Source of the DNA: a virus
Virus record (IMG/VR): IMGVR_UViG_3300045988_143004
DNA length: 37,017 bases
Reading direction: 5' to 3' (one strand)
Part shown: positions 415-925 of the stretch, piece by piece
Numbering within the stretch: the stretch's first letter is position 1
Layout of the letters: each line of letters starts with the position of its first letter
Translations under genes and position numbers: made by a program
Notes under the pieces: generated by a model
Database searches by the model: none
Told to the model about the DNA's origin: nothing
The model's input: only the letters and a program-made list of their open reading frames with translations

Positions 415-738
415 ATGTTTATTTTTAGAATTAAAGAGGTTAGAGAAAAGAAAAATATAACTTTATATAAATTAGAAAAAGAAACTGGTATTAGTAGAAG
501 CTATTTACACGCATTAGAAAATAATAAAAAAAACAATCCTTCCCTGGCTACAATGTATAAAATTTCTAATGCATTAGATGTAAATATAAGAGATTTATTC
601 TATGCTACAGCAGATCTAAATAGTTTAAAAGAAGAAATGTATGCCAGAATAGATAAATATGGCTTAAATTCCGCAGAAGTTATGGAAATAAGCCATGTAA
701 TAGATTTACTAATTAACATAGAAATGCAAGAAAAATAG
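415..738 (+). CDS. XRE-family HTH regulator fused to a Spo0E-like / SinI-like C-terminal helical domain (107 aa)
   Basis: N-terminal ITLYKLEKETGISRSYLHALENNKKNNPSLATMYKISNALDVNIRDLF is a typical HTH_3. C-terminal LKEEMYARIDKYGLNSAEVMEISHVIDLLIN matches the Spo0E-family signature (..L..l..kyGl....vlelSqeLD.LIn). Confidence 0.65.
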   Translation: MFIFRIKEVREKKNITLYKLEKETGISRSYLHALENNKKNNPSLATMYKISNALDVNIRDLFYATADLNSLKEEMYARIDKYGLNSAEVMEISHVIDLLINIEMQEK

Positions 739-759
739 AAGAGCTTAATACTCTTCTAT
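735..759. terminator. Bidirectional hairpin terminator between convergent genes
   Basis: ATAGAAGAG-cttaata-CTCTTCTAT forms a 9-bp stem, flanked by an A-run upstream and T-rich sequence downstream. Confidence 0.55.
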
Positions 760-778
760 TACATAACAGTAAAAGAGA

Positions 779-925
779 CTAACTAGCGTTAATCTCTTTC
801 ATTTTTGCATTTATTAATTTGTCCAACTTTTGGCTTTGTTTTAGTATTATGCTATATTCTTTATCTTCCCTTATCATTCGTTCTAGTTTAACTCGGTTGC
901 GTAATATTAGTAAATCTATACTCAT
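779..925 (-). CDS. Spo0E-like small protein, 48 aa (MSIDLLILRNRVKLERMIREDKEYSIILKQSQKLDKLINAKMKEINAS)
   Basis: Not in the ORF track; translated by hand. SQKLDKLIN matches the Spo0E signature SQeLDkLI. An SD-like AAAGGGTGA lies upstream. The product is homologous to the C-terminus of the 415-738 protein (ISHVIDLLINIEMQE vs QSQKLDKLINAKMKE). Confidence 0.6.
   Translation of the reverse strand: MSIDLLILRNRVKLERMIREDKEYSIILKQSQKLDKLINAKMKEINAS

What the first reader, a model, noticed from the sequence alone, without database searches (positions are those of the whole stretch)
415..925. SinR/SinI-like pair built from Spo0E-like modules: an XRE-HTH::Spo0E-like fusion convergent with an unannotated 48-aa Spo0E-like peptide
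Seen in sequence: the 107-aa protein (415-738) is an XRE HTH followed by LKEEMYARIDKYGLNSAEVMEISHVIDLLIN. A 48-aa ORF absent from the ORF track (779-925, minus strand) has its own RBS and promoter and carries ...ILKQSQKLDKLINAKMKE. The two helical segments are clearly homologous: 7 of 15 identities around S..D.LIN.
Established knowledge: the SQELDxLI motif defines Spo0E-family aspartyl-phosphate phosphatases. SinR/SinI is the paradigm of an HTH repressor antagonised by a small protein homologous to its own oligomerisation domain.
Inference: the phage carries either two sporulation-phosphorelay modulators, or a repressor/anti-repressor pair that has borrowed the Spo0E fold. Either way it targets host developmental decisions.
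Basis: partly seen in the sequence, partly recalled or inferred. Interest (0 to 1): 0.6.

Follow-up and report, generated by a model that had tools for sequence, protein, structure and literature searches.

The report
Two phage Spo0E-like sporulation-control genes
A gut Clostridia prophage carries two real genes built on the Spo0E fold that normally switches off the sporulation master regulator Spo0A, and both sit behind Spo0A-type binding sites, but they look like two separate modulators of host sporulation rather than a matched repressor/anti-repressor pair.

Summary
ORF 415-738 is an XRE helix-turn-helix domain (nearest solved relative SinR) fused to a Spo0E-like helical hairpin. The hairpin scores 28.9 bits on Pfam PF09388, above the 23-bit cut-off. 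The unannotated 48-aa ORF 779-925(-) is a real gene: pN/pS is 0.06-0.25, it has its own terminator-promoter-SD unit, and 25 of 26 homologues hit PF09388.

The "SinR/SinI-like pair" reading is only partly supported.
- The small protein aligns far better with the hosts' chromosomal Spo0E (hhalign 92.6%, 39 columns) than with the fusion's hairpin (59%, 20 columns).
- Only 3 of 45 full-length fusion loci in species genomes carry the small gene, and the small gene also occurs without the fusion.
- The hairpin is not SinI-type.

New here:
- The fusion is a large, uncharacterised family (466 clusters) anchored at prophage ends beside attP.
- Perfect Spo0A boxes precede it in 41 of 46 loci (7.0/kb versus 0.14/kb).
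- The small gene sits behind a portable tandem-Spo0A-box promoter that also works in phages lacking the fusion.

Best reading: two Spo0A-wired modulators of host sporulation.

The parts
415..738 (+). 107-aa XRE-HTH::Spo0E-like fusion protein. HTH is residues 6-61 (nt 430-597). The helical hairpin is residues 65-106 (nt 607-732), with the motif S93-H-V-I-D97-L-L-I-N101.
   Evidence: Pfam HTH_3 at E 1e-15 and SpoOE-like at 28.9 bits, above the 23-bit cut-off. AF2 pLDDT 91 with helices H65-82 and H87-106. SinR is the best PDB sequence hit and 2c0s matches the hairpin. The profile finds 466 homologue clusters, and those listed nearly all carry PF01381+PF09388.
779..925 (-). 48-aa stand-alone Spo0E-like protein (MSIDLL...SQKLDKLIN...), not in the ORF track.
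   Evidence: PF09388 at 19.5 bits for this copy, and 25 of 26 homologues hit. hhalign to host Spo0E gives 92.6%. pN/pS is 0.06-0.25. AF2 hairpin at pLDDT 94. One homologue is named a Spo0E family phosphatase by NCBI.
969..985 (-). Tandem Spo0A-type boxes ATCGACA (979-985) and TTCGACA (969-975), 10 nt start-to-start, in place of a -35 element.
   Evidence: Read directly. Conserved in 17 of 18 small-gene loci. The same 16-mer with the same spacing to an extended -10 drives at least 10 unrelated cargo ORFs in other viral contigs.
931..950 (-). Extended -10 TGcTATAAT (942-950), 21 nt after the proximal box, and SD GGGTGA (931-936) 5 nt before ATG 925.
991..1019 (-). Intrinsic terminator (GACTAG-loop-CTAGT plus a T run) that ends the upstream SecB-like operon and isolates the small gene as its own transcription unit.
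   Evidence: Sequence read; conserved in relatives.
734..801 (.). Two hairpins (734-760 and 770-801) between and overlapping the convergent genes; terminator-like.
   Evidence: 4 terminator-like sites found against 0.2 expected in shuffles.
326..332 (+). Perfect Spo0A-type box TTCGACA, 89 nt upstream of the fusion's start codon.
   Evidence: Perfect 7-mers are present in the 250 nt upstream of the fusion in 41 of 46 distinct loci, 7.0/kb against 0.14/kb in the rest of the loci.
358..408 (+). Inferred fusion promoter (TAGCAC 358-363, 17-nt spacer, TAAAAT 381-386) and SD AAGAGG (403-408).
   Evidence: Inference from the alignment of 48 upstream regions. No transcript data are available.
187..316 (.). 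Conserved regulatory spacer: face-to-face promoter-like sites (+ strand 187-215 TTGACT-17-TATACT; - strand 316-289 TTGACT-16-TATAAT), a long palindrome (204-248), and a hairpin followed by a T run (253-282).
   Evidence: Not resolved further.
120..174 (-). 5' part of a divergent small ORF (start codon 172-174). It is the most constant neighbour of the fusion, about 245 bp upstream. In this window it is cut by the terminal inverted duplication.
   Evidence: Homologous ORFs lie at -230 to -330 bp in at least 31 loci. No family hit.
1..119 (.). Exact reverse complement of 36899-37017: a terminal inverted duplication, probably an assembly artefact.
   Evidence: relatives L005 and L009 are collinear with window end -> window about 107 onward.

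Best explanation
The locus is the accessory end of a temperate phage of small-genome, spore-forming gut Clostridia. In the circular form it lies just past the integrase and attP. It holds two separate genes wired to the host sporulation regulator Spo0A, not one matched pair.

(1) The 48-aa protein is a stand-alone Spo0E-type hairpin, closest to the hosts' own Spo0E. It is transcribed from a portable promoter in which two Spo0A boxes replace the -35 element. When Spo0A~P rises, the prophage makes more of a Spo0A~P antagonist. This negative feedback would hold the lysogen back from committing to sporulation.

(2) The 107-aa protein is a SinR/CylR2-like DNA-binding domain fused to a divergent Spo0E-like hairpin. 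It is a conserved anchor gene at prophage ends. Spo0A boxes precede it, and in most relatives so does one 17-bp palindrome that probably serves self-repression. Its hairpin keeps the invariant Ser...Asp...Asn face of Spo0E and adds a hydrophobic stripe. I infer that this hairpin is the protein's effector and contact surface, directed at Spo0A(~P) and/or used for self-association.

Shown here: the folds, the family memberships, the promoter architecture, the box enrichment and the gene contexts. Inferred: Spo0A binding to the boxes, phosphatase or Spo0A-binding activity, autoregulation, and the effect on sporulation.
For: Domain and fold.

The small protein is close to host Spo0E over the whole hairpin (92.6%, E 5e-7), against 59% over 20 columns to the fusion hairpin.

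The hosts have Spo0A, SpoIIE, SpoIIGA and one chromosomal Spo0E each. In the same order, 55 of 61 genomes carry a Spo0E-like gene.

Small-gene promoter: tandem boxes, then N21, then TGnTATAAT, conserved in 17 of 18 loci including distant ones. The identical 18-bp element precedes a second cargo gene at 18378-18395.

The same box/-10 geometry drives at least 10 unrelated cargo ORFs. Of 20 such viral records only 1 encodes a fusion homologue, and none of the 11 that are at least 90% complete does. The box-binding factor is therefore host-encoded.

The fusion has perfect boxes upstream in 41 of 46 loci, a 50-fold enrichment.

S93 and D97 are invariant in 32 of 32 close relatives and kept in 35 and 32 of 37 in the broad family. 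Positions 95, 98 and 102 are hydrophobic only in fused hairpins.

A single 7-3-7 palindrome lies at -76 in about 25 loci, varies together with the recognition-helix sequence, and has no second copy.

Facultative co-occurrence.

Literature: phage spo0E genes are reported as frequent in gut phage data (10.1101/2021.07.15.452460). C. difficile Spo0E binds Spo0A and the HTH regulator RstA through a two-helix protein (10.1101/2023.03.28.534590).
Against: The upstream regions of the hosts' own spo0A, spoIIE and spoIIGA hold no Spo0A-box-like 7-mers. The 9-mer TTTGTCGAA is not enriched genome-wide (79 against 130 for the reversed control). Use of this box by the host Spo0A therefore rests on Spo0A_C conservation (about 160 bits) and on knowledge from Bacillus and C. 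difficile.

The signature Glu of SQELD is Lys in the small protein and Ile/Val in the fusion. In this window the fusion also has His in place of Gln.

The fusion hairpin shows no profile similarity to host Spo0E.

The hairpin subtype ending ...INIEMQEK travels with the small gene even when the HTH domain is only 48-49% identical. That could reflect a functional partnership rather than mere linkage.
Confidence: 0.5

Rival explanations
1. A SinR/SinI-like switch built from Spo0E hairpins. The fusion is a repressor that oligomerises through its hairpin. The Spo0A~P-induced small protein hooks onto that hairpin and pulls the repressor off DNA. This would de-repress the divergent small ORF or the fusion's own promoter.
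For: Same size and architecture as SinR (107 against 111 aa). SinR is the best PDB hit and aligns end to end in Foldseek. A true SinR aligns over the whole length in BLASTP. Like sinI, the small gene is adjacent and has Spo0A boxes (PMC3163267). The fused hairpin carries an extra hydrophobic stripe. The hairpin subtype co-travels with the small gene across different HTH alleles. In L066 and L068 the fusion is cut back to the HTH exactly at the domain border and a small Spo0E-like gene lies there instead. In many relatives the small gene is co-transcribed with a 67-aa HTH protein.
Against: The small protein is far closer to host Spo0E than to the fusion hairpin. There is no SinI-family signal. 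42 of 45 full-length fusion loci in species genomes lack the small gene, and the small gene occurs without the fusion. The co-travelling can be explained by physical adjacency (44 nt apart). The HTH domain resembles CylR2, which from general knowledge dimerises without an extra domain. The invariant Ser and Asp have no obvious role in a pure oligomerisation hairpin.
Confidence: 0.25
2. Only the small protein acts on Spo0A. The fusion is an ordinary self-regulating XRE repressor of its divergent neighbour at the prophage end. Its hairpin is a purely structural (dimerisation) element that merely resembles Spo0E.
For: There is a single palindromic operator-like site at the fusion's own promoter, co-varying with the recognition helix. 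The divergent small ORF is its most constant neighbour. The fusion hairpin has no profile similarity to host Spo0E, and the acidic residue of SQELD is lost.
Against: The family consensus hairpin scores 43 bits on PF09388. S93 and D97 are invariant in the middle of a hydrophobic helix. Perfect Spo0A boxes upstream are enriched 50-fold in 41 of 46 loci.
Confidence: 0.2
3. The 48-aa ORF is a chance open frame and the resemblance between the two helices is coincidental.
For: Its own Pfam score is below the gathering cut-off. Foldseek finds only generic hairpins.
Against: pN/pS is 0.06-0.25. There are 30 homologue clusters, and the gene is called in many assemblies. Promoter, SD and terminator are conserved. 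hhalign to host Spo0E gives 92.6%.
Confidence: 0.02

Closest known systems
Spo0E / YisI / YnzD family of Spo0A~P aspartyl-phosphate phosphatases (Pfam PF09388; B. anthracis structures 2C0S and 2BZB; C. difficile Spo0E CD3271)
   Same: Two-helix antiparallel hairpin with an S-x-x-L/I-D-x-L-I-N motif in helix 2. These are the top PDB sequence hits for both hairpins. The hosts encode Spo0A and a chromosomal Spo0E.
   Different: Small protein: only 48 aa, SQKLD instead of SQELD, phage-borne, and placed behind tandem Spo0A boxes. Fusion: the hairpin is covalently joined to an XRE HTH, the Glu is replaced by Ile/Val, and there is an extra hydrophobic stripe at positions 95, 98 and 102. I found no description of this architecture in the searchable literature.
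B. subtilis SinR/SinI (and SlrR/SlrA)
   Same: An XRE HTH plus a C-terminal two-helix hairpin of about 110 aa. A small adjacent hairpin-only protein whose gene is under Spo0A control (PMC3163267). The HTH is most similar to SinR/SlrR.
   Different: The hairpins belong to the Spo0E-like family, not to SinI. The genes are convergent, not tandem. The pairing is facultative. The small protein is nearer to host Spo0E than to its supposed partner. No interaction has been shown.
C. difficile SinR / SinR' (112 and 105 aa; PMC5864091)
   Same: Clostridial HTH proteins of about 105-112 aa with poorly conserved C-terminal multimerisation domains; they affect sporulation.
   Different: They are chromosomal, not prophage-end genes.
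Phage-encoded spo0E/rap/abrB next to HTH quorum-sensing receptors (Bernard et al., bioRxiv 10.1101/2021.07.15.452460; Paenibacillus Alo systems, PMC7425212)
   Same: Temperate phages of Firmicutes carrying Spo0E-family genes next to HTH regulators. The authors propose that these hijack the timing of sporulation and report high prevalence in gut phage data.
   Different: Here there is no RRNPP receptor or propeptide. Control appears to come directly from Spo0A boxes, and one Spo0E module is fused to the HTH itself.
Spo0A~P-activated sigma-A promoters (spoIIG/spoIIE type; general knowledge)
   Same: 0A boxes overlap or replace the -35 region, with an over-long spacer (21 nt) to a good -10.
   Different: The boxes are perfect consensus tandems on a portable phage cassette with an extended -10. 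Binding by Spo0A is not demonstrated.

Membership tests
Spo0E-like family (PF09388): small 48-aa protein | Profile match at or above the Pfam gathering score | tested here: inconclusive
   The window copy scores 19.5 bits against a cut-off of 23. 25 of 26 homologues match at E<=0.1, best 1.5e-5. hhalign to five host Spo0E proteins gives 92.6%.
Spo0E-like family (PF09388): small 48-aa protein | Small antiparallel two-helix hairpin | tested here: met
   AF2 pLDDT 94, helices H3-19 and H24-47.
Spo0E-like family (PF09388): small 48-aa protein | SQELD signature with the conserved Asp in helix 2 | tested here: met
   The motif is S31-Q-K-L-D35. D35 and L34 are invariant and S31 is present in every member that has the position (25 of 26). 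Q32 varies (Q/R/K), and the Glu is Lys. Host Spo0E proteins themselves read S-[VIL]-E-L-D.
Spo0E-like family (PF09388): small 48-aa protein | Dephosphorylates or binds Spo0A~P | not testable with these tools
   Needs biochemistry.
Spo0E-like family (PF09388): hairpin of the 107-aa fusion | Profile match at or above the Pfam gathering score | tested here: met
   28.9 bits, above the 23-bit cut-off. The isolated hairpin scores 32.2 bits and the family consensus 43.1 bits. 30 of 37 broad-family members match.
Spo0E-like family (PF09388): hairpin of the 107-aa fusion | SQELD signature | tested here: inconclusive
   The window reads S-H-V-I-D; the family reads S-Q-[IV]-I-D. S and D are invariant (32 of 32), but the Glu is always hydrophobic.
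Spo0E-like family (PF09388): hairpin of the 107-aa fusion | Stand-alone small protein | tested here: not met
   It is fused to an N-terminal HTH_3 domain.
SinR/SinI system | SinR-type XRE HTH DNA-binding domain | tested here: met
   SinR chains are the best PDB hits, E 2e-11. Foldseek finds SinR and CylR2. The top NCBIfam hit is SlrR, over the HTH only and far below its cut-off.
SinR/SinI system | C-terminal hairpin of the SinI family (PF08671) shared by repressor and antagonist | tested here: not met
   No SinI hit for the fusion hairpin at E<=10, and none among small-family members at E<=0.1. A true SinR (L080, P0151) hits SinI at E 7e-6.
SinR/SinI system | Antagonist is homologous to the repressor's own oligomerisation domain | tested here: inconclusive
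   hhalign gives 31-59% over 20 columns. The same small family matches host Spo0E at 92.6% over 39 columns.
SinR/SinI system | Conserved genetic linkage of the two genes | tested here: not met
   3 of 45 full-length fusion loci in species genomes have the small gene. The small gene occurs without the fusion in L020, L021 and L095.
SinR/SinI system | Antagonist gene under Spo0A control | tested here: met
   Met at sequence level only: tandem perfect or near-perfect 0A boxes in 17 of 18 loci.
SinR/SinI system | Heterodimer that abolishes DNA binding | not testable with these tools
   No multimer prediction was available. Only single-chain models could be made.
Spo0A-dependent promoter | 0A box consensus TGTCGAA in the promoter | tested here: met
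   The flanks extend the match to TTTGTCGAA in most copies.
Spo0A-dependent promoter | The factor that binds the boxes is host-encoded rather than the neighbouring phage HTH | tested here: met
   19 of 20 viral records with the same promoter design lack a fusion homologue, including all 11 that are at least 90% complete.
Spo0A-dependent promoter | The same box is used at host sporulation promoters / bound by host Spo0A | tested here: not met
   No 0A-like 7-mers above background upstream of host spo0A, spoIIE or spoIIGA. No genome-wide enrichment. Actual binding is not testable here.

The most novel reading that the evidence does not exclude
The HTH::Spo0E-like proteins are a new class of response-regulator antagonist: a DNA-tethered, self-limiting Spo0A~P phosphatase or binder. 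It would be made in response to Spo0A~P and would clamp the lysogen's Spo0A~P level. Its hairpin would serve both as the oligomerisation surface and as the catalytic or contact surface. A corollary is that SinR-type repressors and Spo0E may be evolutionarily linked through such fusions. The small Spo0E-like protein could then act both on Spo0A~P and on the fusion's hairpin.
Probability: 0.2. Interest if true: 0.8.

Novelty: new variant of a known kind. Interest (0 to 1): 0.55.

Why it matters
Sporulation decides how many gut Clostridia persist and spread between hosts. Prophages that tune Spo0A would therefore shape transmission of gut bacteria. Phage spo0E genes have been noted in bulk by others. 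Three things are new here.

- A large family (466 clusters at 90% identity; about 45 full-length clusters at 50% identity), annotated only as "helix-turn-helix protein", joins a SinR-like DNA-binding domain to a Spo0E module. It sits at a fixed place at prophage ends behind Spo0A boxes.
- A portable Spo0A-box promoter cassette makes phage cargo, including a Spo0E homologue, respond to the host's developmental state.
- The locus gives a concrete, cheap test of whether a Spo0E hairpin can work as an oligomerisation or anti-repressor module, which would link two textbook systems (Spo0E and SinR/SinI).

Tried and rejected
- **Invertible switch.** The perfect 14-nt inverted repeat 700-713 / 906-919 encodes IDLLI in both genes. 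It is broken by synonymous differences in 8 of 9 related loci, so it reflects the shared peptide plus codon usage.
- **SinR box.** GTTCTCT at 339-345 matches the SinR consensus GTTCTYT, but the motif occurs 25 times in the window against 17 expected. It is not meaningful on its own.
- **The TTCGACA boxes as the fusion's own operator.** Rejected because the same promoter design works in phages without the fusion.
- **The TTTGACACAC tandem repeats** (36709-36732 and 36933-36956, the latter mirrored at 62-85 by the artefact). They flank the tRNA-like attP piece and are better read as integrase arm-type sites than as regulator sites.
- **Fold searches.** Foldseek of the 48-aa model gave only generic hairpins with E>1. 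Foldseek of the fusion is dominated by the HTH.
- **Rfam.** Nothing real in 1-3000.
- **Cultured-phage records.** No DNA match and no full-length protein relative.
- **Divergent small ORF families.** No Pfam or PHROG hit.
- **Named members of the broad fusion family.** None found.
- **Second copies of the 17-bp palindrome** near the small gene or elsewhere. None found.
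Full report
**What is there**

The window is a temperate siphovirus-type genome. It has a standard lysogeny module: a Cro-like HTH (33468-33653, minus strand), a CI-like HTH (33703-34149), Abi_alpha, an ImmA-like peptidase and a tyrosine integrase at 35632-36708. Lysis and structural genes lie on the minus strand.

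Bases 1-119 are the exact reverse complement of 36899-37017. Relatives L005 and L009 run collinearly from the window's end into window position about 107. The first 119 bases are therefore an inverted terminal duplication, most likely an assembly artefact.

The true order is: integrase, terminator (36790-36822), tRNA-like attP piece (36827-36889), a small divergent ORF (start codon at 174, minus strand), the 107-aa gene, the 48-aa gene, variable cargo, then lysis genes. In integrated relatives a tRNA gene lies just beyond the divergent ORF (L096 tRNA-Gln, L029 tRNA-Gly, L034), followed by host genes. The finding therefore sits at the far end of the prophage, the classical place for lysogenic-conversion genes.

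ORF 415-738 has HTH_3 at residues 6-61 (E 1e-15) and Pfam SpoOE-like at residues 71-102. The Spo0E-like match scores 28.9 bits against a curated cut-off of 23. The isolated hairpin scores 32 bits and the family consensus 43 bits, with no SinI hit even at E<=10. AlphaFold2 gives a confident model (pLDDT 91): a five-helix HTH domain with a short N/C beta pair, then a helical hairpin H65-82/H87-106.

The 48-aa ORF 779-925 (minus strand) scores 19.5 bits on PF09388, below the cut-off. Other evidence shows it is a real Spo0E-like gene:
- 25 of 26 homologues hit the family, best E 1.5e-5.
- NCBI names one homologue a Spo0E family phosphatase.
- Its model is a hairpin at pLDDT 94.
- pN/pS among eight loci is 0.06-0.25.

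It is an independent transcription unit. A terminator (991-1019) closes the upstream SecB-like operon. Then come two boxes, ATCGACA and TTCGACA (979-985 and 969-975), 21 nt, TGcTATAAT (942-950), SD GGGTGA and the ATG at 925.

**How the two hairpins relate**

Both have the B. anthracis Spo0E-like structures as their top PDB sequence hits: 2c0s at E 0.004 for the fusion hairpin and 2bzb at E 0.14 for the small protein.

Profile against profile, the small family matches the fusion hairpin only over helix 2 (20 columns, probability 31-59%). I cut the hosts' own chromosomal Spo0E genes out of five host genomes (55-63 aa, motif S-[VIL]-E-L-D-E-L-I). The small family aligns with these over the entire hairpin without gaps (39 columns, 92.6%, E 5e-7). 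The fusion hairpin shows no profile similarity to them.

So the small protein is a typical Spo0E homologue, and the fused hairpin is a separate, divergent branch of the family.

Column counts show what differs. Both keep the Ser...Asp...Asn face: S93, D97 and L98-I100 are invariant in 32 of 32 close relatives and N101 is present in 31 of 32, and S and D are kept in 35 and 32 of 37 in the broad family. Positions 95, 98 and 102 form one stripe of helix 2. They are hydrophobic in 32 of 32 fusions, but in 1, 0 and 0 of 26 small proteins and in 0 of 5 host Spo0E proteins. Fused hairpins therefore carry an additional apolar surface. This fits an extra protein contact, such as self-association, packing on the HTH domain, or a partner.

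**The fusion is a large, unrecognised family**

There are 137 clusters at 59% identity or more, nearly all annotated HTH plus PF09388, and 466 clusters at E<=1e-8 with a profile. In the 50%-identity library about 45 clusters align end to end at about 104-118 aa, down to 30% identity. Of 37 sampled, 30 hit PF09388, and only the true-SinR control hits SinI.

The only names that sources give are "helix-turn-helix domain-containing protein" or "XRE-family". No cultured phage has a full-length relative.

The hosts are uncultured gut Clostridia with genomes of 1.2-1.4 Mb, for example Clostridium sp. CAG:452. They encode Spo0A (about 160 bits), SpoIIE and SpoIIGA. In 61 genomes of the same order, 55 carry a Spo0E-like gene.

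The HTH domain is SinR-like. SinR chains are the best PDB hits (E 2e-11) and SlrR is the top NCBIfam model. Foldseek finds CylR2 and SinR, and a genuine SinR from Jeotgalibacillus aligns over the full length.

**Is it a pair?**

Only loosely.
- Sampling by the fusion in species-representative genomes (47 family loci): the small gene is present next to 3 of 45 full-length fusions (L044, L047, L067). It is also present at two loci where the fusion is cut back to the HTH alone, exactly at the domain border (L066, L068).
- Sampling by the small gene (18 places): a fusion is adjacent in 14. Two places have other HTH genes instead (L020, L021), one has none (L095) and one is at a contig end.
- In the L001 group a SocA_Panacea cassette separates the two genes by 1.4 kb.
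- In many relatives the small gene is followed in the same operon by a 67-aa HTH protein, and both are convergent with the fusion. That gene is missing in the window.
- The slot convergent to the fusion can hold other cargo behind the same promoter, for example a 59-73-aa "KKEWNKYA" ORF in L027, L035 and L042.

One point favours a partnership. The hairpin subtype ending ...INIEMQEK is found with the small gene in 10 of 11 cases, even where the HTH domain is only 48-49% identical. This implies recombination at the domain border. Because the hairpin-coding DNA is only 44 nt from the small gene, plain linkage explains this as well.

The fusion's most constant neighbour is not the small gene. It is a divergent 45-58-aa ORF about 245 bp upstream, seen in at least 31 loci and with no family hit.

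**Link to Spo0A**

I had seen the TTCGACA repeats but had not named them. I then tested the idea.

1. The small gene's promoter (box, N3, box, about N21, TGnTATAAT, SD) is conserved in 17 of 18 loci, including the distant L044, L047 and L066-L068. The identical 18-bp element precedes another cargo gene at 18378-18395.
2. The exact 16-mer occurs in more than 116 viral contigs. In about 30 of the 82 read, an extended -10 lies exactly 20-21 nt downstream, followed by an SD and at least 10 unrelated ORFs.
3. Of 20 such viral records only one encodes a fusion homologue, and none of the 11 that are at least 90% complete does. The factor that reads the boxes is therefore not the fusion, and a host protein is implied.
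4. Perfect 7-mers TGTCGAA/TTCGACA lie in the 250 nt upstream of the fusion in 41 of 46 distinct loci. That is 81 boxes, or 7.0 per kb against 0.14 per kb elsewhere in the same loci. In the window the box is at 326-332.

There is a caveat. In five host genomes the upstream regions of spo0A, spoIIE and spoIIGA hold no such boxes. The 9-mer TTTGTCGAA is not enriched genome-wide (79 against 130 for the reversed control), and its only clusters lie at the fusion loci. That the host Spo0A reads this box rests on the strong conservation of its DNA-binding domain and on what is known from Bacillus and C. difficile. It does not rest on host promoter evidence.

**Other regulatory anatomy**

In about 25 relatives a perfect 7-3-7 palindrome (...GCT nnn AGC...) lies 72-95 nt (mostly 75-79) before the fusion's ATG, just upstream of the inferred -35 element. 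Its arms change together with the recognition-helix sequence, and it has no second copy in 5-10 kb. This is the signature of a self-regulating operator. In the window's own clade the palindrome is degenerate.

Further upstream are face-to-face promoter-like sites and two hairpins (187-316). I did not resolve these.

**Mechanism**

*Shown:* two Spo0E-fold genes; a SinR-like HTH; Spo0A-consensus boxes at both genes; a portable promoter cassette that does not depend on the fusion; spore-forming hosts that have Spo0A; facultative pairing.

*Inferred for the small protein (confidence about 0.75):* it is a Spo0A~P-induced Spo0E-type antagonist that gives negative feedback on sporulation entry in the lysogen. 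This agrees with the proposal that phages carry spo0E to steer sporulation (10.1101/2021.07.15.452460).

*Inferred for the fusion:* it is a self-repressing, Spo0A-box-controlled DNA-binding protein whose hairpin is its contact surface. The invariant Ser and Asp argue that the hairpin still addresses Spo0A(~P). The added hydrophobic stripe argues for an additional protein interface. There is precedent for Spo0E binding both Spo0A and an HTH regulator in C. difficile (10.1101/2023.03.28.534590).

The SinR/SinI-like switch remains a live rival at 0.25. It cannot be settled without a multimer prediction or an interaction assay.

**Novelty**

Phage spo0E genes and Spo0A-box promoters are known kinds. 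The HTH::Spo0E-like architecture, its fixed position at prophage ends behind Spo0A boxes, and its occasional coupling to a Spo0A-box-driven Spo0E homologue are, as far as the searchable literature shows, undescribed. I rate this a new variant of a known kind.

C. difficile SinR and SinR' (112 and 105 aa, with poorly conserved C-terminal multimerisation domains; PMC5864091) are the nearest characterised proteins by architecture. Whether they share the Spo0E-like hairpin could not be tested here.

**Limits**

Only single-chain structure predictions were possible. All hosts are metagenome-assembled genomes. Promoter assignments are consensus-based.

Noticed in passing
window 1-119 and 36899-37017: Exact 119-nt terminal inverted duplication. 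Relatives show the true sequence runs from the window's end straight into about position 107, so this is probably an assembly artefact. It cuts the divergent small ORF in two and mirrors the sites at 36933-36956 into positions 62-85.
   Followed up: yes
window 36709-36956: attP-like region after the integrase: a terminator (36790-36822) and a 63-nt tRNA-like piece (36827-36889), flanked by tandem 13-nt-spaced (A)TTTGACACAC repeats (36709-36732 and 36933-36956). These are candidate integrase arm-type sites. In relatives a tRNA gene abuts the prophage end.
   Followed up: partly
window 120-174(-) and relatives (e.g. L026 4619-4756, L009 324-488): A divergent 45-58-aa ORF about 245 bp upstream of the fusion is its most constant neighbour (at least 31 loci, in two or three sequence families). 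It has no Pfam or PHROG hit and its function is unknown. It lies directly beside attP.
   Followed up: partly
relatives, 72-95 nt (mostly 75-79) before the fusion's ATG (e.g. L030 TGTCGCTaccAGCGACA; L044 ATGACGCTcacAGCGTCAT): A perfect 7-3-7 palindrome at a fixed position. Its arms vary together with the recognition helix of the fusion, and there is a single copy per locus. It is probably an autoregulatory operator, and it is degenerate in the window's clade.
   Followed up: partly
window 18378-18395(-) and >116 viral contigs (L115-L194): The tandem-box element TCGACAAATTTCGACA, followed 20-21 nt later by an extended -10, is a portable promoter cassette placed in front of at least 10 unrelated cargo ORFs (several membrane-anchored) in gut phages. 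Most of these phages lack the fusion gene.
   Followed up: yes
window 1008-2315(-); L001 4355-5611; L029, L033, L062: The slot next to the fusion is a hot spot for variable cargo. It holds a SecB-like protein plus two unknown ORFs here. In relatives it holds a SocA_Panacea pair, Doc-like and MazF/PemK-like toxins (named from reading the translations only), a DUF3800-like ORF and a ClpP-like protease.
   Followed up: no
L066 4938-5340; L068 520-844: In two independent loci the fusion gene ends right after the HTH domain (...DLFYSEFDK / ...DLFDS). A small Spo0E-like gene with tandem boxes overlaps it convergently. This is a natural 'split' of HTH and hairpin.
   Followed up: partly
G005:C12:42769-43065, G005:C13:15305-15604, G004:C26:31245-31475, G006:C18:3751-4044: The host genomes hold extra Spo0A_C (DNA-binding domain) matches besides the main spo0A. 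Some lie in short open frames (87-160 aa). These may be orphan Spo0A DNA-binding domains and might compete for the same boxes.
   Followed up: no
window 700-713 and 906-919: A perfect 14-nt inverted repeat that encodes IDLLI in both genes. It is not conserved at the nucleotide level in relatives, so it is a coincidence of shared motif and codon usage.
   Followed up: yes
L090, L091 (host spo0E loci): Two of five host chromosomal spo0E genes have perfect Spo0A-type 7-mers within about 250 nt upstream. This hints that host spo0E may itself be wired to Spo0A.
   Followed up: no
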